Of a stretch of 64,000 nt of DNA, positions 3,723-63,680 are shown piece after piece; position 1 is the first letter of the stretch, and the number at the start of each line of letters is the position of its first letter. The notes under the pieces are model-generated. The model made no database searches. It was not told where the DNA came from and saw only the letters and a program-made list of their open reading frames with translations. Both the position numbers and the translations under genes were made by a program. This DNA comes from Minisyncoccia bacterium (GTDB lineage Bacteria > Patescibacteriota > Minisyncoccia > Phycocordibacterales > PALSA-1337). The stretch lies in the NCBI GenBank assembly GCA_044228445.1, contig JBGAUV010000001.1, forward strand, positions 250,495 to 314,494, given 5' to 3'.

Positions 3723-5250
3723 TTAGTTAAGAGTTTGATCCTAGCTCAGGATGAACGCTGGCGGCGTGGATAAGGCATGCAAGTCAAACGGCTTAGCACT
3801 GTGCTCGCAAATTAATATTTGTTAGTAGAGTGCTAAGCAGTGGCAGACGAGGTAGTAATAAGCAGGTATCAACCTTCGAGTCAAGAATACCTCATCGAAA
3901 GATGAGTTAATACTTGATAGTCTCGAAAGAGTAAAGATTTATCGCTCGAAGATGAGCCTGTTCAGTATCAGCTAGTTGGTAGGGTAATGGCCTACCAAGG
4001 CTTCGACGCTTAGGGGAGGTGAGAGCCTGACCCCCACCGATGGAACTGAGACACGGTCCATACACCTACGGGTGGCCGCAGTCGAGAATCTTCCGCAATG
4101 GACGAAAGTCTGACGGAGCGACGCCGCGTGGATGATGAAGCACTTCGGTGCGTAAAATCCTTTTGCCAGGGAGAAAGTTTATTGATAGTACTTGGCGAAT
4201 AAGAGGTTGCTAAACTCGTGCCAGCAGCAGCGGTAATACGAGTGCCTCAAGCGTTATCCGGAATCATTGGGCGTAAAGGTTGTGTAGGTGGTTATATTAG
4301 TCTTTTGTTAAATTCTTCGGCTTAACCGGGGGCATGCAGAGGAAACGGTATAACTAGAGGATGCGAGGGGTTTCTGGAACTCATAGTGTAGCGGTAAAAT
4401 GCGTTGATATTATGGGGAACACCAAAAGCGAAGGCATGAAACTAGAGCACTCCTGACACTGAAACAAGAAAGCGTGGGTCGCGAATGGGATTAGATACCC
4501 CAGTAGTCCACGCCCTAAACGATCTTCTCTTGCTTTTCGGAGTATCGACCCTCCGAGAGGCGAAGCTAACGCGTTAAGAGAAGCGCCTGGGTAGTACGAC
4601 CGCAAGGTTAAAACTCAAAGGAATAGACGGGGACTTGCACAAGCGGTGGATCATGTGGCTCAATTCGACGGTAAACGAAGAACCTTACCAGGGTTTGAAA
4701 CCTAGCTGAATACTTTAGGAAACTAGAGTAGTCGCAAGACAGTTAGGCAGGTGATGCATGGCCGTCGTCAGTTCGTGGCTTGAGTTGTTCCCTTCAGTGG
4801 GGTAACGAACGCAACCCTCGTTGTCTGTTATATTTGTCAGGCGAGACTGCCCACGACATAGCGCATAAACTAAGTTTGTGCTCTGCGTCGTGGGAGGAAG
4901 GTGAGGATGACGCCAGGTCAGCATGTCCCTTTGATACCCTGGGCTGCACACGTGATACAATCGTATCTACAACAGGACGCAATACCGATAAAAGGTGGAG
5001 CAAATCCTTAGAAAAGATACGTCAGTTTGGATTGAGGTCTGCAACTCGACCTCATGAAACCGGAATCGCTAGTAATCGCAGATCAGCTATGCTGCGGTGA
5101 ATACGTTCTCAAGTCTTGTACTCACCGCCCGTCAACTCAAGGGAGTTGGGAGTACCCGAAGTCCGCGCTTGTCGCGGCCTAAGGTAAGCTCAATGACAGG
5201 GAGTAAGTCGTAACAAGGCACGGGTAGCGGAAGCTGCTCGTGGATTATTT
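3723..5250 (+). rRNA. rrs: 16S ribosomal RNA
   Basis: AGAGTTTGATCCTAGCTCAG at 3730; GTGCCAGCAGCAGCGGTAATACG (515 region, one mismatch to the universal primer); AAGTCGTAACAAGG at 5206; helix 45 with GGAA loop at 5221-5240. Confidence 0.95.
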
Positions 5251-5407
5251 CAAATTGAATCTTGATAATCCCTCAGGGATTATCTTACCGAGTCGATTTT
5301 TGTACTTAATTGTACAAACAAGGGATATTGTTCTACTACCTTACAGTGAACACTCAGTCTGCGAGAGAAAAGACAAAGATCGGTGTCCTCTATAGAGACA
5401 CTGATCG

Positions 5408-5437
5408 GATGAATGGAACAAAATAAAGTACAGTAAT
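5408..5437 (+). other. 3' strand of the 16S processing stem
   Basis: ATGAATGGAACAAAATAAA is complementary to 3701-3720. Confidence 0.6.
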
Positions 5438-5444
5438 ATGAAAG

Positions 5445-5475
5445 AACCGCTTAAAAGGCGGTTTTTTCTTTTTAT
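5445..5475 (+). terminator. Rho-independent terminator closing the 16S transcription unit
   Basis: AACCGC-TTAAAAG-GCGGTT followed by TTTTTCTTTTT. Confidence 0.7.
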
Positions 5476-5563
5476 AAATAATTATTTCCACATTTACTAT
5501 ATTTGATATGTGTGATATGTTTTTAGTGGAAATCTAGACATAGAGTCTAGTTAGAAAGGAGAT

Positions 5564-5722
5564 ATGAACAGACTTCAACTTGCTCGTAGGGTTGAGTATA
5601 GTCAACCCTCTGTTAAAGAACAAAAGCAATCAATCAGTGTTGGTTCATTTTTGCTTGCTTTGTTTATATTTATATTGGCTTTTGGGCCAATGGTAGTAGA
5701 AGGATTTCTTACAACATTTTAA
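5564..5722 (+). CDS. Small (52 aa) protein with a C-terminal TM helix
   Basis: AAAGGAGAT immediately 5' of the ATG; MNRLQLARRVEYSQPSVKEQKQSISVGSFLLALFIFILAFGPMVVEGFLTTF; below the ORF-track size cutoff. Confidence 0.4.
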   Translation: MNRLQLARRVEYSQPSVKEQKQSISVGSFLLALFIFILAFGPMVVEGFLTTF

Positions 5723-5799
5723 GGAGAGAAAGGAGATATGTTTCAATTTTTATAACCACGCGATTCTTTATGCGCGTGGTTTGTCATCTAGTTTAATAT

Positions 5800-6486
5800 A
5801 TGAAAATAAAATTTTTCAAAATAATAGTTTTAATAATAGCAATATTGTTCTCAAAACATGCTTTTGCAAAAGAAGTTATATGTCCTGAGGGGTATATTTG
5901 CTTACCAAAAAATGATCCACTTATACTTGCTTCAACAAGTCCTTGTTTTATAGGTTCAAGCATGACAACCTCTTTTAAGGATTTAGATTCAAAAGCTAAA
6001 TCAATAGGTGATAGTATTTCATTTAAATTATTAAATAAGAATAAAGATTACGCTGGTACTTGGGGAGTATTTAAAAGTGGAAGTGGATCAAGTCCTGATT
6101 ACAATAAAGATTGGGGTTTTGAACTAAGTCTAAATCTTTCAAAATTAAAAACCATAAAGTCTATTACAATTATAAACGATGATGGTAATGAAGGTTGGTC
6201 AACTAGTGCGGATGAAAAGTTATTTGGTAAAAAGCCTTATCCTCTTGTTGTTATAGATAAAAATGGAGAGCAATTAAATTATGAATATGAAGATACTATT
6301 TTTATACCAAAAGGTGAAAGTATTTTAAATCTATACGGTCAGATTGAATATAGTGACTTAAGAAATACGGAAATTGTTGTTATTTTCACTGATAATACTT
6401 ATTTGAATAGTAAGATTATTGAAAATGCTTCAACTCAAGCAAATAATAGTCTTTGGGCTAAGTTAAAATCTAAGTTTGGATTTTAA
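5800..6486 (+). CDS. Secreted protein of unknown function
   Basis: Signal peptide MKIKFFKIIVLIIAILFSKHAFA|KE; no recognisable domain. Confidence 0.6.
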   Translation: MKIKFFKIIVLIIAILFSKHAFAKEVICPEGYICLPKNDPLILASTSPCFIGSSMTTSFKDLDSKAKSIGDSISFKLLNKNKDYAGTWGVFKSGSGSSPDYNKDWGFELSLNLSKLKTIKSITIINDDGNEGWSTSADEKLFGKKPYPLVVIDKNGEQLNYEYEDTIFIPKGESILNLYGQIEYSDLRNTEIVVIFTDNTYLNSKIIENASTQANNSLWAKLKSKFGF

Positions 6487-6523
6487 TTGATGTTTAGTCG
6501 TATTTTTGGTATATTCAACAATG

Positions 6524-6555
6524 TTTTAAATGCGCGTATAGCTGACTTGGTAGGG
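6524..6555 (+). repeat. Degenerate duplicate of the tRNA-Ile 5' half plus its upstream flank
   Basis: ATGCGCGTATAGCTgacTTGGTAGgG versus ATGCGCGTATAGCTcagTTGGTAGaG at 6590-6615; diverges after the D-arm. Confidence 0.6.
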
Positions 6556-6591
6556 TTGAGTGTCACTTATACGTTTTGAGATTTTTACCAT

Positions 6592-6664
6592 GCGCGTATA
6601 GCTCAGTTGGTAGAGCACACCACTGATACTGGTGGGGTCCCTGGTTCGAGTCCAGGTACGCGCA
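6592..6664 (+). tRNA. tRNA-Ile (anticodon GAU), CCA not encoded
   Basis: Manual cloverleaf: acceptor GCGCGTA/TACGCGC, D-arm GCTC/GAGC, anticodon stem CACCA/TGGTG with loop CTGATAC, T-arm CCTGG-TTCGAGT-CCAGG. Confidence 0.9.
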
Positions 6665-6758
6665 CAAAGTTTTTATATTTCAAAAAATGTGGTAATGTAT
6701 TTGTGGAAAGGAGAAAAAATGACCGCATATACATTCGAAGGAAAAAAATAAAAAATCA

Positions 6759-6795
6759 AAAAGCGCGCCTCTTCAGGTGGCGCTTTTGTTTTATT
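6759..6795 (+). terminator. Rho-independent terminator after the tRNA
   Basis: AAAAGCGC...GCGCTTTTGTTTT hairpin. Confidence 0.55.
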
Positions 6796-15657: not shown

Positions 15658-16437
15658 TTATTTAAAGAAATTTAACCTCAAAAGTTCAGTTGTAGAGTTC
15701 TTTGCGCCTATGTAAGTATAGTTATCTTCACCCGTTTTATCTGATTCTATCCATTTTTGTTCAATTAGACTTTTATTTATGTCAATGATTTCAATTATTC
15801 CATCATTTATACCATGACCATATTCTCCATGACTTGGCCAAGCTATGGAGTGTGTATAATGTATTTTTATAGGTATAAAGTTTTGATATTCCACTTGATA
15901 TACAACTAAAATATGATTTCTTTCTCCTGCTCCAGAATTTCTTTGCATAGTTATTATATCTCCAACTTTTACATCCTTTATTTCTATAGGGTGAGAATTT
16001 TCTTTTGATGCAAAAGTTTCAACATTGGTATTTTCAATTGGTCTCATCATTGATCTTATTTTTCCAATTATTCCTTTTGAAAAAGGAAAGGATAAATGTT
16101 TGTCTAAACTACCTTTACCCAAACTTATACTTTCAGCATTTAAAATATAATAAGCATAACCCGAACAATCTATTCCAATATTATGCATTACTAATATTTT
16201 TTTTAATTCTTCACTAGTAATATCTTTTATAGATATCTTTTCTTTCATTATTATTTGTTCAATCTCTTCAAATATTTCCTTTGGACTACCTTTACCATTT
16301 TCTACACGGAGTTTTGCTCTACCACCTGAGTGGCGATTGTTATAATAAGGTATAGAACAAATTGCATTACCAAGTTTGAAATTTTTATATTGATCAATTA
16401 TAGAAATAGCTTTTTCACTTAAAAATTTTGTATTCAT
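15658..16437 (-). CDS. NlpC/P60-like cysteine peptidase domain protein
   Basis: GIDCSGYAYYIL catalytic-Cys motif with downstream NHILVV His. Confidence 0.45.
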   Translation of the reverse strand: MNTKFLSEKAISIIDQYKNFKLGNAICSIPYYNNRHSGGRAKLRVENGKGSPKEIFEEIEQIIMKEKISIKDITSEELKKILVMHNIGIDCSGYAYYILNAESISLGKGSLDKHLSFPFSKGIIGKIRSMMRPIENTNVETFASKENSHPIEIKDVKVGDIITMQRNSGAGERNHILVVYQVEYQNFIPIKIHYTHSIAWPSHGEYGHGINDGIIEIIDINKSLIEQKWIESDKTGEDNYTYIGAKNSTTELLRLNFFK

Positions 16438-19019: not shown

Positions 19020-19023
19020 CTGT

Positions 19024-19053
19024 TGACAGAAAAGGTTGTTGCGTGCTAATATA
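19024..19053 (+). promoter_or_regulatory. Sigma70-type promoter TTGACA-N18-TAATAT with extended -10 (TGc)
   Basis: Read directly; immediately after the stop of the upstream gene. Confidence 0.55.
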
Positions 19054-19059
19054 TTTTTG

Positions 19060-19190
19060 CCACCCCAGAGGTATGAAATTGTTCCGTCGTCACCTCCTAG
19101 TGACCACAGGGTCATACCCCACGACGGGATGATCGATTACCTCTGAGGGTGGTATACGGCTTGCAGAATTTTTCTGCGGCCTTTTTTATT
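19060..19190 (+). ncRNA. Candidate structured small RNA (~130 nt), class unknown
   Basis: P1 CCACCC-c-AGAGGTA (19061-74) pairs with TACCTCT-ga-GGGTGG (19138-52). P2 is CCGTCGT/ACGACGG. Inner hairpin TGACC-ACAG-GGTCA. Own terminator GGC-GCAGAA-TTT-TTCTGC-GGCC plus a T6 run. Confidence 0.55.
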
Positions 19191-19344
19191 TATATTATAT
19201 TTATACACAATAAGTATTGCCTTTTTCATATATTAGATGTACTATATTTATCCGGATGCACTCTACCTCGGTTTACTACTAGGAGGTGGTAGACTCAATA
19301 GGGGTAAGGGGGAGCATTGAACCTAGTTAAGTTAGGAGGTCAAA

Positions 19345-19530
19345 GTGTCAAAGGAAAATCCTGTGACGTCATGGAGGGTGATCGGGAAGCCGGTAGTCCG
19401 AAGTGACGGACACAATATTGTCAAAGTCGATAATGGAGGAAAGAGGCCGAGAGAAGTCCTTGTACCAAAGGGCACTCCAGCCAAAAATTTCAACGCCTTT
19501 ATCAAGCAGGCATTGTATCCCACTTATTGA
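19345..19530 (+). CDS. Small (61 aa) protein of unknown function, GC-richer than flanks
   Basis: GTG start 4 nt after TAGGAGGT; followed by two hairpins including a GC-rich terminator. Confidence 0.55.
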   Translation: MSKENPVTSWRVIGKPVVRSDGHNIVKVDNGGKRPREVLVPKGTPAKNFNAFIKQALYPTY

Positions 19531-59210: not shown

Positions 59211-60224
59211 ATGTTAATAGGAAAAGCATCACCAGAAGATACAAGTCTACACCCAATAAAGTATAAATGGGCTTATGATCTATACAATCAAGCAGTTAGA
59301 AATACTTGGTTTCCACATGAAATTACTCTAAAAGAGGATATGGATGATTGGAAGAAGATGACTGATGATGAAAGACATGCAGTTACATTCCTAATGGCAT
59401 TCTTTAACCCTGCAGAACTTATTGTAAATCGTTCAATTGCTTTAGGAATTTACCCTTATCTAAAGTCTCCAGAGTGCCATCTTTATCTAGCAAAACAAAT
59501 GTGGGAAGAGGCAAATCACTGTGTGGCTTTTGAATATGTTCTAGAAACATTTCCTTTTGATAGAGAAAAAATATATAACCTTCATCTTGAAGTTCCTTCA
59601 ATGAAAGCAAAAGAGGATTATATAAATAAATACATGAAGAGAATGACCGATGTTTCTCTAGATGTAAGTACTACAGAAGGTAAAAAAGATTTTATACGAA
59701 ATCTTGTTGCTACAAACATTGTGATGGAAGGAATATGGTTCTATTCAGGTTTTATGGTTGCTCTTTCATTCCGTCAGAGAAAACAACTTAGAAACTTCGG
59801 TTCTATGATTAACTGGGTTTTGAGAGATGAAAGTCTTCACTTAAAATTCGGTATGAACCTTATTCACAATATCTTGGAGGAAAATCATGATCTATTAACT
59901 GAAGATTTTGCAAATGAAATAAGAAATATAATCATAGAAGGAGTTGATAAAGAAGTTGATTATAATATGGATCTTTTCCCAAACGGTATTCTTGGTCTAA
60001 ATGCTGATTATGTTAATCAATACGTAAAGTATGTTACAGATCGTCGCCTAGAAGAACTAGGTTTTCCTCCACACTACAATGCTACAAACCCAGCAAAATG
60101 GATGTCTACTGCTACAGATGTTTATGAGCTTGTTAATTTCTTTGAAGCACAAAATACAAGTTATGAAGTAGATGTAAGAGCACATTCAGAAAAGAAAGAG
60201 GAGAAGAAAGAGGCGGGGGAGTAA
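59211..60224 (+). CDS. nrdB: Ribonucleotide reductase beta subunit, class Ic-like (R2c)
   Basis: Metal site EEANHCVAFEY has Phe at His+4, where class Ia has the radical Tyr; first ligand is Glu (NPAELIV). Confidence 0.85.
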   Translation: MLIGKASPEDTSLHPIKYKWAYDLYNQAVRNTWFPHEITLKEDMDDWKKMTDDERHAVTFLMAFFNPAELIVNRSIALGIYPYLKSPECHLYLAKQMWEEANHCVAFEYVLETFPFDREKIYNLHLEVPSMKAKEDYINKYMKRMTDVSLDVSTTEGKKDFIRNLVATNIVMEGIWFYSGFMVALSFRQRKQLRNFGSMINWVLRDESLHLKFGMNLIHNILEENHDLLTEDFANEIRNIIIEGVDKEVDYNMDLFPNGILGLNADYVNQYVKYVTDRRLEELGFPPHYNATNPAKWMSTATDVYELVNFFEAQNTSYEVDVRAHSEKKEEKKEAGE

Positions 60225-60226
60225 TT

Positions 60227-60646
60227 ATGTTAGTTGTTAAGACTAAAATTAAAAATAGTGAAATTGAAGGACTAGGTCTATTTGCTGATCAGTTTATACC
60301 TAAAGGTAGTGTAATTTGGAAATATGATCCAAGTTTTGATATTTATTTTGATCCTAAGGAGGTAGAAAAAATGTCAGAACCGCAAAAAGACCTGATAATA
60401 CATTTTGCTTATCTTTCAAAAAAAAGTGGTAAATATGTTTATTCAATAGATAATACAAGATTCACAAATCATTCAAATAAACCAAATACCGTAGAAGATG
60501 AAAATGTTTGTAGTGATGATTTAGAAATATGTACTATTGCTGTTAAGGATATTCAAATAGGGGAGGAAATTACTATTGATTATCGGGTAATTGACGCAGT
60601 GGATGAAGGTAGTAATGAGGAGTATTTGAAGACGGTAGTTCTATAG
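60227..60646 (+). CDS. SET-domain protein (putative lysine methyltransferase)
   Basis: GLGLFA, RFTNHSNKPN, GEEITIDY; starts 3 nt after the nrdB stop, preceded by GGGGGAG. Confidence 0.8.
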   Translation: MLVVKTKIKNSEIEGLGLFADQFIPKGSVIWKYDPSFDIYFDPKEVEKMSEPQKDLIIHFAYLSKKSGKYVYSIDNTRFTNHSNKPNTVEDENVCSDDLEICTIAVKDIQIGEEITIDYRVIDAVDEGSNEEYLKTVVL

Positions 60647-60663
60647 AGTTTTTATGGTTTAGG
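60628..60663 (+). repeat. Junction motif copy 1
   Basis: GAAGACGGTAGTTCTATAGAGTTTTTATGGTTTAGG; supplies the last 6 codons and the stop of the SET gene. Confidence 0.7.
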
Positions 60664-60703
60664 AATAAAAGTGGGCTCACCGAAACGAATTTCAGTGAGC
60701 CCA
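60660..60703 (-). terminator. Minus-strand terminator hairpin
   Basis: On the minus strand: TGGGCTCAC-N14-GTGAGCCCA followed by CTTTTATT. Confidence 0.5.
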
Positions 60704-60748: not shown

Positions 60749-60921
60749 TAAGATTTAGGCAAAAATTTACCCCACTTACATTTCCGTAAGTGGGGCGTAC
60801 CTAGGAATTTAGGATGACTTGAATCGTCTTGCGACGAATGATCAGAGCCATAAAAACCTAGATATATAAGATACTGACTTCTACATCACAGCAAACTACT
60901 ATAACTTTGTCAAGTGACAAA
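60749..60921 (+). repeat. 173-bp repeat, copy 1
   Basis: 172/173 identical to 62711-62883 by manual alignment (C/T difference at 60888 versus 62850). Confidence 0.9.
60758..60878 (-). ncRNA. Candidate sRNA A, copy 1 (~120 nt)
   Basis: Minus-strand promoter TTGACA-N17-TGTGAT (60885-60913); internal TCGTC-GCAA-GACGA hairpin; terminator CCCCACTTAC-GGAAAT-GTAAGTGGGG then TAAATTTTTG. Confidence 0.5.
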
Positions 60922-60937
60922 TGTGTGTACCTAAAAC

Positions 60938-60964
60938 AGTGGTCTCATAGAGTTTAAGGTCTAG
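60938..60964 (+). repeat. Junction motif copy 2
   Basis: AGTGGTCTCATAGAGTTTAAGGTCTAG. Confidence 0.7.
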
Positions 60965-60969
60965 CTATA

Positions 60970-60998
60970 TTGACATACTAAACTAAATGTGCTATTTT
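60970..60998 (+). promoter_or_regulatory. Promoter of cassette A: TTGACA-N17-TATTTT with extended -10 TG
   Basis: Read directly. Confidence 0.5.
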
Positions 60999-61017
60999 TG
61001 TATGTAATAGCACATTT
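60985..61017. promoter_or_regulatory. 11-bp perfect inverted repeat spanning the -10/TSS (operator-like)
   Basis: AAATGTGCTAT-N11-ATAGCACATTT. Confidence 0.55.
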
Positions 61018-61050
61018 CAACGATTTCAACCCAAAACCATTAGGAGAACC

Positions 61051-61425
61051 ATGAGCAAGCCTTCTTTCACCGTATTTGTTGGCATAAAGGGCGAATTCTC
61101 AGAAGAAGATTACGCCAAACTTCCGTCCGAGCTTCGAAAAGCATACTCGCCGTGTCCTGAATGGGATCTGGGAGAGGAAATCATTATCGACGGATTGGAA
61201 TTTGATTCCTTTGACCTTGGTCGCGATGACACTGCTGATCCGGGAGAATATGTGGGCTTCGGCGTCCATATCTTCGGTCAGTGGTATGACAGCGGAGCTA
61301 CTTGCTTCGCTCTTGATGAGCTTCAAACAATCGAATCTGTTCGTCAGAAGATGACAACTCTCTTCGATCAATGGAAGCTCGATGCCAAAGTCGAAGTGTT
61401 CTGCTTTGCAGGATACAATTCATAA
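61051..61425 (+). CDS. Island cassette A: acidic 124-aa protein, unknown function
   Basis: TAGGAGA-N5-ATG; GC-rich codon usage unlike the flanks; own terminator. Confidence 0.65.
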   Translation: MSKPSFTVFVGIKGEFSEEDYAKLPSELRKAYSPCPEWDLGEEIIIDGLEFDSFDLGRDDTADPGEYVGFGVHIFGQWYDSGATCFALDELQTIESVRQKMTTLFDQWKLDAKVEVFCFAGYNS

Positions 61426-61441
61426 CCCATCAACTCACTCC

Positions 61442-61480
61442 AGAAAACCCCTGTCGCGAGATGGTGGGTTTTCTGTTTTA
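61442..61480 (+). terminator. Rho-independent terminator of cassette A
   Basis: AGAAAACCC...GGGTTTTCT-GTTTTAT. Confidence 0.7.
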
Positions 61481-61654
61481 TAAAATTCCAATATGTTGAT
61501 ACTAACAGACTTGAACGGCATCCTAAATAGATGTCATTTATTGTTACTTGCTATATAAAAATCTCGTTGATATGTTGTTAGGTAAGACGAGCTTGAAATC
61601 AAAATAAAAACTAGAGCATCTTCTATGGGGAATTCAATCAGTATTTAACTCTGT

Positions 61655-61688
61655 GAAGACGGTAGTATTATAGAGTTTAAGGTTTAGA
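61655..61688 (+). repeat. Junction motif copy 3
   Basis: GAAGACGGTAGTATTATAGAGTTTAAGGTTTAGA; the upstream AGTATTT is also shared with copy 1. Confidence 0.7.
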
Positions 61689-61692
61689 CTAC

Positions 61693-61720
61693 TTGACATA
61701 TGACCATGTCGTGATATAAT
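61693..61720 (+). promoter_or_regulatory. Promoter of cassette B: TTGACA-N16-TATAAT with extended -10 (TGa)
   Basis: Near-consensus sigma70 promoter read directly. Confidence 0.7.
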
Positions 61721-61779
61721 TTAAAAGGACTAGGATTTTTCCTAATGCTGTCCAGCAAAATCATACTTGGAGGATAGAA

Positions 61780-62139
61780 ATGTACTCTGACGATAAAACT
61801 CTAAAAGAGTTCATGACTGTACTTGTAAGTACAGCTGCGGCTCGGAGAAACTACTTGGATGTCCCTAGCGATTTCATTTTGAGACATCCCTGGACACTGA
61901 AATACCTTTCCAATTTCGCTGAGGCTGACGATTTCATGCAGATCGCGAAAACGGAAGGAGTCCAGATTGTTTGCGAGGATGAACCCAAAAACATTCAAGA
62001 GTTTCGCCGGGACCATGGTCTCAAACCACAGGTTCGCTACAAAGTGTTTGTTCCAGCCGAAACAAAAATCAGAACAAAAGAACAGATCTTCAAGTTCGAA
62101 AGACAAGGAGATGGTTCATATGTTCCACTCAATGGCTGA
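61780..62139 (+). CDS. Island cassette B: 119-aa protein, unknown function
   Basis: TGGAGGA-N5-ATG; own terminator. Confidence 0.65.
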   Translation: MYSDDKTLKEFMTVLVSTAAARRNYLDVPSDFILRHPWTLKYLSNFAEADDFMQIAKTEGVQIVCEDEPKNIQEFRRDHGLKPQVRYKVFVPAETKIRTKEQIFKFERQGDGSYVPLNG

Positions 62140-62142
62140 ACC

Positions 62143-62187
62143 AAAACCCCATCTACGCTTTCATGAGAAGATGGGGTTTTGTCTTTT
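62143..62187 (+). terminator. Rho-independent terminator of cassette B
   Basis: AAAACCCCATCT-N14-AGATGGGGTTTT-GTCTTTT. Confidence 0.75.
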
Positions 62188-62188
62188 A

Positions 62189-62222
62189 GAAGATGGTGGT
62201 TTAATGTAGTTTAAAATTTAGA
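62189..62222 (+). repeat. Junction motif copy 4
   Basis: GAAGATGGTGGTTTAATGTAGTTTAAAATTTAGA. Confidence 0.6.
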
Positions 62223-62388
62223 TAAAAGAAAGCCGGCCAAACCTTATGGGTCTGGCCGGGAAAGTGATGGGTATGCGCCCATCTGCGGATCATTTACGAT
62301 CATTTTGCCAGTAAAATAAGGTTATTTCTGGTTACGTATCCCTGGTATTGTGTCCAGACACGTAACTTATGAATACTAACCTTATTCT
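62222..62388 (-). ncRNA. Candidate sRNA B (~165 nt), same promoter as sRNA A, different body
   Basis: Promoter TTGACA-N17-TATGAT (62395-62423, minus strand). Long hairpin AATAAGGTTA...TAACCTTATT enclosing GTTACGT/ACGTAAC. GATGGG-CGCATA-CCCATC hairpin. Terminator CCGGCCAGACC-CATAAGG-GGTTTGGCCGG then CTTTCTTTT. Confidence 0.5.
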
Positions 62389-62429
62389 TTTACCATCATA
62401 GCAAATTACTATAACTTTGTCAAGTATTC

Positions 62430-62462
62430 AAAGATGTCGGTGTTATGGAGTTCAAGTTCTAA
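62430..62462 (+). repeat. Junction motif copy 5
   Basis: AAAGATGTCGGTGTTATGGAGTTCAAGTTCTAA. Confidence 0.55.
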
Positions 62463-62478
62463 CCTCTATTGATATAAT
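62451..62478 (+). promoter_or_regulatory. Promoter of cassette C: extended -10 TGaTATAAT, weak -35 TTCAAG
   Basis: Read directly. Confidence 0.5.
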
Positions 62479-62522
62479 TAATCTAGAGTGTTAATCTTCT
62501 TTTTAAGAAAGGAGAGTACATC

Positions 62523-62720
62523 ATGATCAAAATTACTGTCCGTAAAGAAGGAGAGAGAACCTTTGCGGCCTATGTGGACGATGAAAATATGCGGCGCATA
62601 GGTGAGTCTCGAGGAGAAGCTGTTGGCAAAGTCGTATCTGATCTCATTGAACAAAGGTCAGTACGGTTGGAAGATTGTCAAGTGCATCAAATCGAGATTA
62701 AACAAAAATATAAGATTTAG
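62523..62720 (+). CDS. Island cassette C: 65-aa protein, faint HicB/DUF1902-like N-terminal pattern
   Basis: AAAGGAGAG-N6-ATG; MIKITVRKEGERTFAAYVDD...GESRGEAVGKVVSDLIE. Confidence 0.55.
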   Translation: MIKITVRKEGERTFAAYVDDENMRRIGESRGEAVGKVVSDLIEQRSVRLEDCQVHQIEIKQKYKI

Positions 62721-62883
62721 GCAAAAATTTACCCCACTTACATTTCCGTAAGTGGGGCGTACCTAGGAATTTAGGATGACTTGAATCGTCTTGCGACGAA
62801 TGATCAGAGCCATAAAAACCTAGATATATAAGATACTGACTTCTACATCATAGCAAACTACTATAACTTTGTCAAGTGACAAA
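62711..62883 (+). repeat. 173-bp repeat, copy 2
   Basis: See copy 1; begins inside the last codons of cassette C. Confidence 0.9.
62720..62840 (-). ncRNA. Candidate sRNA A, copy 2
   Basis: Promoter TTGACA-N17-TATGAT (62847-62875, minus strand); body identical to copy 1. Confidence 0.5.
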
Positions 62884-62910
62884 GATAGTGGTCTCATCGG
62901 GTTTAAAATA
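62881..62910 (+). repeat. Junction motif copy 6 (degenerate)
   Basis: AAAGATAGTGGTCTCATCGGGTTTAAAATA. Confidence 0.5.
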
Positions 62911-62917
62911 ACCAGTA

Positions 62918-62946
62918 TTTACAATTTGTATAATTTAGTATATAAA
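62918..62946 (+). promoter_or_regulatory. Promoter of cassette D: TTTACA-N17-TATAAA
   Basis: Read directly. Confidence 0.5.
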
Positions 62947-62981
62947 AAATGTAGACTTAATTTAACACTGAAAGGTGCATC

Positions 62982-63200
62982 ATGAGTATTCTAAGAGAAT
63001 TCCGTAACGCCAGCCCAAGTGAAAAAGACCCTGCAAAACTTATTTTATTCACAGTATTTGCTGACCTTAATGCTCGGCACGGCTTCGGGGATTTCTGGAG
63101 CGGTATTAACAATGATATAAAAGAAGAAATTTTGAAAACAAATCTCGAAAAGATAAGAGAAATACTGAAGAAAAAGACTCAAACCAAAAACAAAGATTGA
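62982..63200 (+). CDS. Island cassette D: 72-aa protein, unknown function
   Basis: AAAGGTG-N4-ATG; own terminator. Confidence 0.6.
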   Translation: MSILREFRNASPSEKDPAKLILFTVFADLNARHGFGDFWSGINNDIKEEILKTNLEKIREILKKKTQTKNKD

Positions 63201-63224
63201 AAAAAAGTGACTGAATCAATCCAG

Positions 63225-63268
63225 GCCTCGTGTATATACATAAAAGTAAACACGAGGCTTTGAATTTT
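63225..63268 (+). terminator. Rho-independent terminator of cassette D
   Basis: GCCTCGTG-N18-CACGAGGC-TTTGAATTTT. Confidence 0.75.
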
Positions 63269-63331: not shown

Positions 63332-63336
63332 TATTA

Positions 63337-63672
63337 GGTACCAGACAGTTGCTATGATACGAAAGTATCGTAGAGGAAAGTCCGAACATTGGCCTGACGC
63401 AAGTTAGGCAGAAAGGTAGCGGGTAACGCCCGTCAGTCGAAGGACTAGAGGTGCGAACAGAGACGTCTTTATTGGAAACGATAAAGAGACCCTTCGGGGT
63501 TAGCTTGTATAGAAATATATGAGGTGCAACGGCAAAATCCTTACCCCAATGCAAGGCCGTGCTTTATAGGAAACTATAAAGAGTGCCGCTTGAGGTTAAT
63601 TGCAAAATTAATCCCAGATAAATGACTGTCGTTCGTTTTTAACGAATACAGAATTCGGCTTACAGGTACAAT
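63337..63672 (+). ncRNA. rnpB: RNase P RNA, bacterial type A
   Basis: ACCAGACAGTTGC, GAGGAAAGTCCG, GGTAACGCC, GCAAGGCC, GCCGCTTGAGG, AGATAAATGACTGTC, ACAGAATTCGGCTTA all align to the E. coli M1 RNA conserved blocks. Confidence 0.9.
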
Positions 63673-63680
63673 ATGAAAAA

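What the first reader, a model, noticed from the sequence alone, without database searches (positions are those of the whole stretch)
61036..62984. Translation-signal mismatch: island genes carry textbook SDs in a genome whose 16S has no anti-SD
The island start sites read TAGGAGA-N5-ATG (61051), TGGAGGA-N5-ATG (61780), AAAGGAGAG-N6-ATG (62523) and AAAGGTG-N4-ATG (62982). Elsewhere there are TAGGAGGT-N4-GTG (19345) and AAAGGAGAT-ATG (5564). Core genes have none of these. One explanation is very recent acquisition from an SD-using donor such as the host bacterium or its phage. Another is expression in a different cell or by a different ribosome population. A third is use of the purine tract as an RNA-RNA regulatory handle, as in the anti-SD-like loop at 19092.
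Basis: partly seen in the sequence, partly recalled or inferred. Interest (0 to 1): 0.6.

Follow-up and report, generated by a model that had tools for sequence, protein, structure and literature searches.

The report
Shine-Dalgarno gene cassettes, anti-SD-less host
Four small genes with textbook ribosome-binding sites sit in a mobile cassette array inside a candidate-phyla-radiation bacterium whose ribosomal RNA cannot pair with such sites, so these signals most likely arrived with the mobile DNA and are not matched to this host's ribosome.

Summary
The 16S rRNA (3723-5255) ends GGAUUAUUUCAAAU instead of GGAUCACCUCCUUA, and two relatives also lack CCUCC. Loss of the anti-SD in a Parcubacteria subgroup is already published. 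Core genes have A/T-rich, often leaderless-like starts without SD. The four ORFs at 61051, 61780, 62523 and 62982 each have a sigma-70 promoter, a 38-53 nt leader, an SD 4-8 nt before ATG, and mostly a terminator. Their sites pair with a canonical anti-SD at -7.3 to -9.3 kcal/mol, but with the real tail only at background level.

The genes are foreign in composition (GC3 0.34-0.46 against 0.154 for core). They lie in a cassette array inserted between nrdB/SET and rnpB. The array is bounded by six same-orientation copies of a 25-nt repeat that mimics the 3' end of ychF. The same repeat bounds cassette arrays downstream of ychF, or next to a conserved Xer-like integrase, in about 50 CPR-like metagenome contigs. 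None were found in phage or plasmid collections.

My best reading is that the SDs were carried in with a CPR-internal mobile gene pool. SDs vary among homologues, but they are conserved in an integrase-linked gene, so a function without 16S pairing is not excluded. Interest is moderate.

The parts
3723..5255 (+). 16S rRNA gene. The 3' tail at 5242-5255 reads GGATTATTTCAAAT where the canonical sequence is GGATCACCTCCTTA, so there is no anti-SD core.
   Evidence: Rfam RF00177, 1341 bits, model positions 1-1533. Sequence read. Relatives L024 and L035 have GGATTAACTCAATTG and GGATTCATTCAAAAATTG.
60227..60646 (+). SET-domain gene. Its last codons and stop lie inside the first copy of the boundary repeat. 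Its composition is host-like (GC3 0.17). Homologous SET genes are cassettes in ychF-linked arrays elsewhere.
   Evidence: Pfam PF00856, E = 9e-16. GC3. Homologues in L133, L110, L115 and L126 lie next to repeat copies.
60629..60653 (+). Boundary (att-like) repeat, copy 1: AAGACGGTAGTTCTATAGAGTTTTT.
   Evidence: Fuzzy match to AAGAYGGTRGTNNNATRGAGTTTAA with 2 mismatches. Repeat family D4/D2.
60672..60703 (-). Minus-strand terminator-like hairpin (14 bp) in a short cassette remnant.
   Evidence: The same hairpin follows repeat copies in L093 and L094.
60749..60921 (-). Small-RNA cassette A, copy 1. On the minus strand it has TTGACA-17-TGTGAT, a structured transcript of about 110 nt, and the terminator 60796-60769. 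It begins with a truncated repeat (AAGATTTAGG).
   Evidence: 173-nt direct repeat, 99% identical to 62711-62883. Promoter and terminator. Fold of copy 2 gives z = -7.2.
60933..60957 (+). Boundary repeat, copy 2.
   Evidence: 2 mismatches.
60970..61014 (+). Promoter TTGACA-17-TATTTT of the 124-aa gene, overlapped by the palindrome TGTGCTATT-N9-AATAGCACA (60988-61014). The palindrome is a probable operator or 5'-UTR hairpin.
   Evidence: The -35 box and the TAGCACA half-site are conserved in homologues from seven contigs.
61041..61047 (+). SD TAGGAGA. GGAG lies 4 nt before the ATG at 61051.
   Evidence: -7.3 kcal/mol against the canonical anti-SD, -1.9 against the real tail. AGGAG is kept in 5 of 7 homologues.
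61051..61425 (+). 124-aa cassette gene of unknown function, GC3 0.46. It is followed by the terminator at 61450-61468.
61656..61680 (+). Boundary repeat, copy 3 (perfect match).
61693..61720 (+). Consensus promoter TTGACA-16-TATAAT (12 of 12 positions) of the 119-aa gene.
61768..61774 (+). SD TGGAGGA, 5 nt before the ATG at 61780.
   Evidence: -9.3 against -2.9 kcal/mol. It is absent from the homologues in L142 and L143.
61780..62139 (+). 119-aa cassette gene of unknown function, GC3 0.44. A terminator hairpin lies at 62143-62187.
   Evidence: The hairpin was read.
62190..62214 (+). Boundary repeat, copy 4.
   Evidence: 1 mismatch.
62233..62423 (-). Small-RNA cassette B. On the minus strand it has TTGACA-17-TATGAT, a structured RNA of about 155 nt, and the terminator 62259-62233.
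   Evidence: Fold z = -6.8.
62431..62455 (+). Boundary repeat, copy 5.
   Evidence: 3 mismatches.
62508..62516 (+). SD AAAGGAGAG. GGAG lies 8 nt before the ATG at 62523. A -10 TATAAT box lies at 62473-62478.
   Evidence: -9.2 against -1.9 kcal/mol.
62523..62720 (+). 65-aa cassette gene. Its last codons run into a truncated repeat. Strain variants encode 60-62 aa followed by a full repeat.
62711..62883 (-). Small-RNA cassette A, copy 2.
62882..62906 (+). Boundary repeat, copy 6.
   Evidence: 3 mismatches.
62971..62977 (+). SD-like AAAGGTG, 4 nt before the ATG at 62982. A -10 TATAAT box lies at 62929-62934.
   Evidence: -7.9 against -3.2 kcal/mol.
62982..63200 (+). 72-aa cassette gene, GC3 0.34. 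A terminator-like inverted repeat lies at 63220-63263.
   Evidence: (I6).
63333..63678 (+). RNase P RNA. It marks the right-hand core flank of the insertion.
   Evidence: Rfam RF00010, 120 bits. In relatives it lies 60-180 nt after nrdB.

Best explanation
The four SD-led ORFs are self-contained expression cassettes. Each has its own sigma-70 promoter, a 38-53 nt leader, an SD and, for most, an intrinsic terminator. They belong to a site-specific-recombination cassette array that accreted between nrdB/SET and rnpB in a Paceibacteria (CPR) genome. Every cassette is bounded by the same-orientation repeat AAGAYGGTRGTNNNATAGAGTTTAA(GATTTAG). Elsewhere this repeat is the 3' end of ychF (...KDGDVIEFK*), the usual attachment point, or it lies about 350 nt downstream of a conserved Xer-like tyrosine integrase.

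The host ribosome has lost the anti-SD, as have its relatives, and the host's own genes start leaderless or in A/T-rich contexts without SD. The SDs are therefore signals inherited with genes of a CPR-internal mobile pool, not signals matched to this ribosome. In this host they cannot form an SD:anti-SD helix, so the cassettes must be translated by the same SD-independent route as internal cistrons of host operons, or be translated poorly.

Shown: the missing anti-SD, the SD contrast, the foreign composition, the repeat-bounded array, its relatives and the strain variation. Inferred: recombinase-mediated insertion, the CPR-internal origin, and SD-independent translation.
For: 1. The 16S tail lacks CCUCC in the window and in two relatives. 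Loss of the anti-SD in a Parcubacteria subgroup is published (PMC9297842).
2. Island sites pair at -7.3 to -9.3 kcal/mol with a canonical tail and at background level with the real tail. Upstream regions of core genes pair with the canonical tail more weakly than in-gene background.
3. Island GC3 is 0.34-0.46 against core 0.154 +/- 0.027.
4. In relatives, rnpB follows nrdB directly.
5. Six repeat copies in one orientation bound all cassettes. Strain contigs differ by whole cassettes.
6. An exact-motif scan found 48 metagenome stretches. In more than 20 of them the first, degenerate copy is the ychF 3' end, and in 12-13 the repeat follows an integrase that is 88-100% identical across contigs.
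7. SD presence varies among homologues, as expected if it is not required everywhere. It is kept in 5 of 7 members of the 124-aa family and lost in 2. It is absent from both 119-aa homologues. Only 22% of distinct cassette ORFs have dG <= -6.
8. Core genes on array-bearing contigs are SD-free.
Against: The GGAGGT before the integrase-linked 340-aa gene is conserved in 5 of 6 contigs, down to 46% protein identity. The AGGAG of the 124-aa family is more conserved than most of its leader. This looks like purifying selection, so the SD works in at least some hosts of this pool, and all contigs seen look SD-free in their core genes. Whether those hosts retain an anti-SD is unknown.

No integrase or ychF lies in the window, so the insertion mechanism at this site is inferred. 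A second 16S allele outside the 64-kb window cannot be excluded.
Confidence: 0.62

Rival explanations
1. The purine tracts are functional in this anti-SD-less host, not for 16S pairing but as handles for trans-acting RNAs that carry a CCUCC loop. An example is the structured RNA at 19058-19155, whose internal loop UCACCUCCUA copies the canonical anti-SD. Pairing would gate translation or stability of SD-led mobile genes.
For: The RNA at 19058-19155 has a sigma-70 promoter and a terminator and folds with z = -8.5, leaving UCACCUCCUA unpaired. It is complementary to CUAGGAGGUG (19281-19290, -21 kcal/mol) and to the RBS UAGGAGGU of the 61-aa ORF at 19345. In a sister strain its stems carry compensatory changes while the loop and both targets are unchanged. 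A 15-nt segment centred on that loop (CGUCACCUCCUAGUG, which also takes in flanking nucleotides that are paired in the predicted fold) could pair with the 124-aa RBS at -13 kcal/mol. SDs appear selected in some mobile genes.
Against: Any CCUCC sequence pairs with any SD, so complementarity to the island sites is not specific. The full-length duplex test gave z between -1.7 and +0.8. The island's own small RNAs A and B show no above-chance complementarity to the island leaders. The 19058 RNA and its 61-aa neighbour were found only in this species. SDs are missing from several homologues.
Confidence: 0.15
2. The SDs are read by a second ribosome population. This could be a second 16S allele with CCUCC elsewhere in the genome, or expression in another cell after transfer.
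For: Only 64 kb of a contig of at least 371 kb was available. SD conservation in the integrase-linked gene suggests the SD is used somewhere.
Against: Two relatives (81% and 77% 16S identity, one from a 56% GC genome) also lack CCUCC at the same position, so the loss is lineage-wide. This agrees with the literature. All homologues lie in CPR-like contexts such as LeuRS-NUDIX, DUF5671, ychF, rpoBC and GrpE. No phage or plasmid matches were found. From general knowledge, CPR genomes usually have one rRNA operon.
Confidence: 0.1
3. The motifs are chance purine runs in more G+C-rich DNA and carry no translational meaning in any host.
For: The island is richer in G+C, so GGAG-like words are more frequent there. 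In-frame SD-plus-start combinations also occur inside island genes (61252, 61855, 61967, 62623).
Against: All four first start codons have the motif at 4-8 nt spacing, against 4 of 50 for other genes (p = 2e-4). The motif is conserved across homologues from different contigs. Many other cassettes have AAAGGAGG at the same spacing.
Confidence: 0.05

Closest known systems
Anti-SD loss in a subgroup of Parcubacteria (Tsurumaki et al. 2022, RNA 28:1041, PMC9297842)
   Same: The window's 16S and two relatives lack CCUCCU at the 3' end. The organism is a Parcubacteria/Paceibacteria-type CPR bacterium.
   Different: In the passages I searched for SD and anti-SD terms, the paper describes only the rRNA. 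I did not read the whole paper. Those passages do not report that mobile or accessory genes in such genomes carry canonical SDs.
Bacteroidota/Flavobacteriia translation, where the anti-SD is sequestered, SD is rare, and a few SD-bearing genes are regulated through it (Jha et al. 2021 NAR, cited; the rest is my own knowledge)
   Same: Genome-wide SD-independent initiation coexists with a small minority of genes that keep strong SDs.
   Different: In Bacteroidota the anti-SD sequence is still present and can be liberated. Here the sequence itself is gone, so that mechanism cannot apply.
Accretion of integrative elements and cis-mobilisable elements (CIMEs) at the 3' end of a conserved gene (streptococcal ICE/CIME literature; my own knowledge)
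   Same: There are direct repeats identical in orientation that mimic, and in the ychF reading frame would restore, the 3' end of the target gene. Elements are stacked in tandem. A tyrosine integrase is present in some copies and absent from others.
   Different: The units here are tiny (150-720 bp), each carrying a single promoter-gene-terminator or a small-RNA gene. The array in the window is not at ychF and has no integrase nearby.
Integrons
   Same: Arrays of single-gene cassettes are separated by a recombination-type repeat. In some contigs a tyrosine recombinase sits directly next to the first repeat. Cassette content varies at strain level.
   Different: The repeat is a 25-35 nt direct repeat without attC-type inverted symmetry. 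The cassettes carry their own promoters. The recombinase is Xer-like and scores far below the integron-integrase cut-off (56 against 265 bits).
Phage 'morons' (autonomous promoter-gene-terminator units)
   Same: Each gene has its own promoter and terminator, and its composition differs from its surroundings.
   Different: There is no prophage context and no match in phage collections.

Membership tests
Canonical SD-led translation initiation | A purine-rich GGAGG-like motif lies 4-9 nt upstream of the start codon. | tested here: met
   GGAG, GGAGG or AAGGTG lies 4-8 nt before all four ATGs.
Canonical SD-led translation initiation | A complementary CCUCC is present in the 3' tail of the cell's 16S rRNA. 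| tested here: not met
   The tail is GGAUUAUUUCAAAU. Duplex energies with the island sites are -1.9 to -3.2 kcal/mol, which equals background. A second 16S outside the window was not testable.
Anti-SD-lacking Parcubacteria (CPR) | The CCUCCU motif is absent at the 16S 3' end. | tested here: met
   Literature.
Anti-SD-lacking Parcubacteria (CPR) | The organism has Parcubacteria/Paceibacteria affiliation. | tested here: met
   NrdB is 78-91% identical to MAGs named Parcubacteria, Paceibacterota, Nomurabacteria, Zambryskiibacteria and Staskawiczbacteria. The 16S is 81% identical to a Nomurabacteria MAG. No formal phylogeny was made.
Integron | An IntI-type integrase lies adjacent to the array. 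| tested here: not met
   No integrase homologue is in the window (tblastn). The integrase of related contigs scores 56 bits against an integron-integrase cut-off of 265, and its best hits are Xer families.
Integron | Cassettes are separated by attC sites, which are imperfect inverted repeats that fold as hairpins. | tested here: not met
   The boundary element is a direct repeat with no inverted symmetry. None of the inverted repeats reported spans it.
Integron | Cassettes are mostly promoterless and expressed from a common Pc promoter. | tested here: not met
   Each cassette has its own sigma-70-like promoter, including a 12/12 consensus match.
Accreted integrative elements / CIME-type arrays | Direct repeats flanking each unit correspond to the 3' end of a conserved target gene. 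| tested here: met
   In more than 20 contigs the first repeat copy is the end of ychF (..KDGDVIEFK*). Later copies keep that reading frame as KDGGVIEFKI*. In the window the first copy is the end of the SET gene instead.
Accreted integrative elements / CIME-type arrays | A cognate tyrosine integrase is associated with the repeat. | tested here: inconclusive
   This holds in 12-13 related contigs, where the integrase is 88-100% identical and the repeat lies about 350 nt downstream. It is absent from the window.
Accreted integrative elements / CIME-type arrays | Units excise or integrate by recombination between the repeats. | not testable with these tools
   The only indirect evidence is strain contigs that differ by whole units, or by the 1.96-kb segment between the two 173-nt repeats. 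Assembly artefacts at repeats are not excluded.
Xer/dif-type modules (IMEX, pdif) | The site is 28 bp with two partly palindromic 11-bp arms around a 6-8 bp spacer. | tested here: not met
   By inspection of the consensus, no dyad symmetry is present.

The most novel reading that the evidence does not exclude
In anti-SD-less Paceibacteria, canonical SD motifs survive under selection specifically on mobile genes because something other than the 16S tail reads them. One candidate is a trans-acting RNA that displays the lost anti-SD sequence, such as the UCACCUCCUA-loop RNA at 19058-19155. SD:anti-SD pairing would then be repurposed as a private regulatory or silencing channel for mobile genes.
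Probability: 0.12. Interest if true: 0.85.

Novelty: new variant of a known kind. Interest (0 to 1): 0.5.

Why it matters
Anti-SD loss is rare in bacteria, and its consequences for gene flow have not been studied. This locus shows that a lineage whose ribosome cannot form the SD helix still takes up and keeps SD-led genes, and that these genes mark the mobile or accessory fraction of the genome.

This gives three practical leads:
- In such genomes, an SD upstream of a gene is a simple flag for foreign genes.
- The leaders, with and without GGAG, can be assayed on ribosomes carrying this 16S tail. That tests how anti-SD-less ribosomes treat SD-led leaders, and whether the conserved SDs on the integrase-linked gene are read by anything.
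- The locus exposes an apparently undescribed system in CPR bacteria, which are known for small, stable genomes. It consists of miniature cassette arrays (single small genes or small RNAs) bounded by a ychF-3'-end mimic and associated with a highly conserved Xer-like integrase.

Tried and rejected
- **Protein families.** Pfam, PHROGs and NCBIfam scans of the four island proteins gave no hits.
- **Wider searches for the 124-aa family.** Nothing was found in GTDB species representatives or IMG/VR.
- **Boundary repeat and island DNA.** The repeat was not found in IMG/VR. The island DNA and protein gave no match in phage or plasmid collections.
- **Known RNA families.** Rfam at E <= 1 found nothing in the island or at 19058.
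- **A new RBS matched to the real 16S tail.** Core upstream regions are not enriched for complementarity to the real tail (p = 0.97), so I rejected this idea.
- **A downstream CCCUC as a hidden anti-SD.** The sequence at 5272-5276 lies in a hairpin and is not conserved in L024 or L035, so I rejected it.
- **Island small RNAs as antisense regulators of the island leaders.** Duplex energies were no better than for shuffled leaders. The test is crude, because RNAduplex allows long loops. An earlier run of the same test timed out.
- **Wider homologues of the 61-aa ORF at 19345.** Only the same species was found.
- **Source assembly.** The accession could not be recovered.
- **SD enrichment across all cassettes.** The enrichment is modest, 22% against 12% of core ORFs. 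ORF calling in short cassettes is noisy.
Full report
**Observation.** The window is A/T-rich (25-30% GC over most of its length). It carries a full-length bacterial 16S gene at 3723-5255, a class A RNase P RNA at 63333-63678 and one tRNA-Ile. The 16S has a normal helix 45 (CACGGGTAGC-GGAA-GCTGCTCGTG) and then reads GGATTATTTCAAAT, where E. coli-type rRNAs read GGATCACCTCCTTA, so the CCUCC core is missing. There are two small corrections. The first site has 3 nt, not 5, after TAGGAGA. The site at 5564 has its GGAG only 2 nt from the ATG.

**Is it more than chance?** I took 50 long ORFs outside the island, plus the four island ORFs, and computed the best duplex of the 20 nt upstream of each start with a canonical tail and with the real tail.
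- Island sites give -7.3, -9.3, -9.2 and -7.9 kcal/mol with the canonical tail. With the real tail they give only -1.9 to -3.2 kcal/mol, the same as random in-gene 20-mers (-2.4).
- The other genes average -1.5 kcal/mol with the canonical tail, which is weaker than the in-gene background of -3.0. SD-like words are therefore depleted before core starts.
- At a threshold of dG <= -6 the count is 4/4 island genes against 4/50 others (Fisher p = 2e-4).
- The one strong non-island site (GGGGGAG before the SET gene at 60227) is the coding 3' end of nrdB.
- Core upstream regions are not enriched for complementarity to the real tail (p = 0.97), so no replacement SD is evident.
- Core starts are often leaderless-like. 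A strict TATAAT lies within 22 nt of the start in 7 of 49 genes, against 2% of random 22-mers.
- The island genes have leaders of 38-53 nt, measured from promoter positions.

**Host and the missing anti-SD.** NrdB (59211-60224) is 78-91% identical to proteins of MAGs labelled Parcubacteria, Paceibacterota, Nomurabacteria and similar names. Two of the fetched relatives happen to carry 16S genes. Their tails are GGATTAACTCAATTG (a Nomurabacteria MAG) and GGATTCATTCAAAAATTG (a 56% GC Paceibacterota MAG), and neither has CCUCC. The loss is therefore lineage-wide and is not an artefact or an effect of A/T pressure. It is already published. Tsurumaki et al. 2022 found the anti-SD motif in only 48% of Parcubacteria and concluded that SD helices do not form in the others (PMC9297842). 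A crude SD scan of the Paceibacteria-like relatives' loci gives SD frequencies at background level.

**What the island is.** The four ORFs have GC3 of 0.34-0.46 against 0.154 +/- 0.027 for core genes, a z-score of 7-12. In relatives L010, L012, L017 and L024, RNase P RNA follows nrdB within 60-180 nt. Two other relatives have a different single gene there. The window has the SET gene plus 2.65 kb at that position.

The 2.65 kb is organised by six same-orientation copies of a 25-nt repeat, AAGAYGGTRGTNNNATRGAGTTTAA, usually continued by GATTTAG. The copies start at 60629, 60933, 61656, 62190, 62431 and 62882. Each interval between copies holds one of two kinds of unit.
- A plus-strand unit contains a promoter, an SD, a small ORF and a terminator. 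One promoter is a 12/12 consensus match.
- A minus-strand unit contains TTGACA-17-TATGAT, a structured RNA and a terminator. The two RNA types fold with z = -7.2 and -6.8.

RNA cassette A is present twice as a 173-nt repeat at 99% identity. Near-identical metagenome contigs differ by whole units. L001 has a complete repeat where the window has a truncated one. L002 and L004 have a full repeat after a 60-62-aa version of the 65-aa gene. L149 joins 60752 to 62711 and so lacks the 1.96 kb between the two 173-nt repeats. Assembly collapse at repeats cannot be excluded for the L149 variant.

**Relatives of the array.** An exact-match scan with the repeat found 48 stretches in JGI/ENA metagenomes and none in IMG/VR.
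- In more than 20 stretches the first, more degenerate copy is the 3' end of a gene ending ..Y(V/I)VKDGDV(I/M)EFK*. This gene is YchF by Pfam in L007 and by tblastn elsewhere. Later copies would encode KDGGVIEFKI* in the same frame. The repeat is therefore an att-type site that mimics the ychF 3' end and, if recombination occurs within it, would preserve the ychF reading frame.
- In 12-13 other stretches, and in L006 next to a homologue of the 124-aa gene, the repeat is preceded by CCNCTTGTTGRG. It lies about 350 nt downstream of a 305-aa tyrosine recombinase that is 88-100% identical across contigs. Its best matches are Xer families, below all curated cut-offs.
- Upstream of the integrase lies a 333-340-aa gene with a weak phosphoribosyltransferase match.
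- SET-domain genes homologous to 60227-60646 are themselves cassettes in such arrays (L133, L110, L115, L126). The window's SET gene ends inside repeat copy 1. My inference is that the SET cassette, now host-like in composition, brought the att site to the nrdB-rnpB junction and later cassettes were added at it.
- I found no paper describing this system.

**What the SDs mean.** The pool is heterogeneous. Some cassettes elsewhere have AAAGGAGG at canonical spacing (L131, L132, L136). Others have TATAAT a few nt before the ATG and so look leaderless (L099, L100, L102). Many appear non-coding. Among distinct cassette ORFs, 22% have dG <= -6 against 12% of core ORFs on the same contigs (MWU p = 0.012). 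The strongest sites in the core set belong to the integrase-linked 340-aa gene.

Within families the SD comes and goes. AGGAG is kept in 5 of 7 leaders of the 124-aa family but reads GGAT in L008 and AGTAG in L140, while the -35 box and operator half-site stay intact. Neither homologue of the 119-aa gene has an SD. This variation fits signals that are not required in every host.

Against pure neutrality, GGAGGT before the 340-aa gene is conserved in 5 of 6 contigs, down to 46% protein identity. Core genes on all these contigs are SD-free. Whether those hosts retain an anti-SD could not be determined. About half of Parcubacteria retain it, and that is the simplest way to reconcile the two observations.

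**Donor.** All homologues sit among CPR-typical genes: LeuRS with a NUDIX insert, DUF5671, YchF, RpoBC and GrpE. Nothing matched in phage, plasmid or viral-contig collections. The evidence points to a CPR-internal mobile pool.

**The RNA-handle idea.** At 19058-19155 there is a promoter- and terminator-flanked RNA that folds with z = -8.5 and leaves UCACCUCCUA unpaired. That loop is complementary to CUAGGAGGUG at 19281-19290 (-21 kcal/mol) and to the UAGGAGGU RBS of a 61-aa ORF at 19345. A sister strain shows compensatory stem changes, with the loop and both targets unchanged. This is good evidence for an RNA-RNA pair at that locus. It is striking that the RNA displays exactly the sequence the ribosome has lost. 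For the island, however, complementarity to this loop follows automatically from being an SD. The island's own RNAs show no specific pairing with the leaders in a crude test. I give this reading 0.15 for the island.

**Verdict.** The missing anti-SD is known biology for this lineage. The SD-led genes are cassettes of a mobile, repeat-bounded array, and their SDs are best read as signals carried in with the mobile pool (confidence about 0.6). Selection on some SDs in apparently SD-free hosts remains unexplained and keeps a more novel reading alive. The cassette system itself and the anti-SD-mimic RNA are the more original things found here.

Noticed in passing
window 19023-19190 (RNA about 19058-19155) and 19281-19347: A structured small RNA with promoter TTGACA-17-TAATAT and its own terminator folds with z = -8.5. 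Its internal loop, UCACCUCCUA, reproduces the canonical anti-SD that the 16S lacks. The loop is complementary to CUAGGAGGUG at 19281-19290 and to the RBS UAGGAGGU of a 61-aa GTG-start ORF (19345-19530, GC3 0.50). A sister strain (L144) has compensatory stem changes with the loop unchanged. No Rfam match was found, and the RNA was seen only in this species.
   Followed up: partly
L006 7213-9925; also L091, L095, L107, L117, L137: A conserved mobile module was found in several contigs. It contains a 333-340-aa gene with a weak PRTase-like match and a conserved AAGGAGGT SD, then a Xer-like tyrosine integrase (88-100% identical across contigs). Next comes a leaderless-looking, lysine-rich ORF of about 46 aa that starts 6 nt after a TATAAT box, then a structured non-coding stretch ending in a hairpin, then CCNCTTGTTGRG and the att-like repeat.
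   Followed up: partly
L090-L137 (for example L097 235-1583, L106 5558-7579, L102 7224-7729): Arrays of 150-700-bp cassettes lie downstream of ychF in many CPR-like metagenome contigs. Many cassettes are minus-strand units whose -35 TTGACA box sits 5-6 nt from the repeat, and whose terminator (hairpin followed by UUUUUGCCUAAAUC) abuts the next repeat. This suggests a standardised cassette architecture.
   Followed up: partly
window 5256-6603: The 16S and tRNA-Ile genes are separated by about 1.3 kb. This stretch holds a 52-aa membrane-like ORF (5564-5722) preceded by GAAAGGAGATATG, a second copy of GAAAGGAGATATG at 5728-5740, and a 228-aa ORF. It also holds a decayed duplicate of the tRNA-Ile 5' half, whose first 14 nt ATGCGCGTATAGCT (6530-6543) exactly repeat 6590-6603. 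The arrangement looks like the scar of an element integrated at tRNA-Ile.
   Followed up: no
window 6700-6795: Just after tRNA-Ile there is an SD-led mini-ORF (GGAAAGGAGAAAAAATG, 10 codons) followed by a terminator-like hairpin (GCGCGCCTCTTCAGGTGGCGC plus a T-run).
   Followed up: no
window, core genes (for example 8958, 10016, 15658-16437 on the minus strand, 19658, 46132, 52038): Many core genes have a TATAAT-like box 3-13 nt before the start codon (14 of 49 with relaxed hexamers, 7 of 49 with strict TATAAT, against a 2% background). This suggests widespread leaderless or very short-leader mRNAs in this anti-SD-less genome.
   Followed up: partly
window 4850-4894 (inside the 16S): An inverted repeat (cccacgac...gtcgtggg) lies inside the 16S gene. 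It looks like an extra hairpin or insertion relative to standard 16S, as is often reported for CPR rRNAs.
   Followed up: no
L011 11020-12009; L013 10988-15079; L025 5171-7133: The nrdB-rnpB junction varies among relatives. In some the two genes are directly adjacent. In others a 329-aa or a 1363-aa gene is inserted. L025 has small accessory genes there, one of them preceded by TAGGAGT, in an otherwise SD-free contig.
   Followed up: partly
window 60878-60769 and 62840-62731 (minus strand): Small RNA A contains a possible 16-codon ORF (AUG GCU CUG AUC AUU CGU CGC AAG ACG AUU CAA GUC AUC CUA AAU UCC UAG, encoding MALIIRRKTIQVILNS) with no SD. I did not resolve whether the unit is coding or non-coding.
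   Followed up: no
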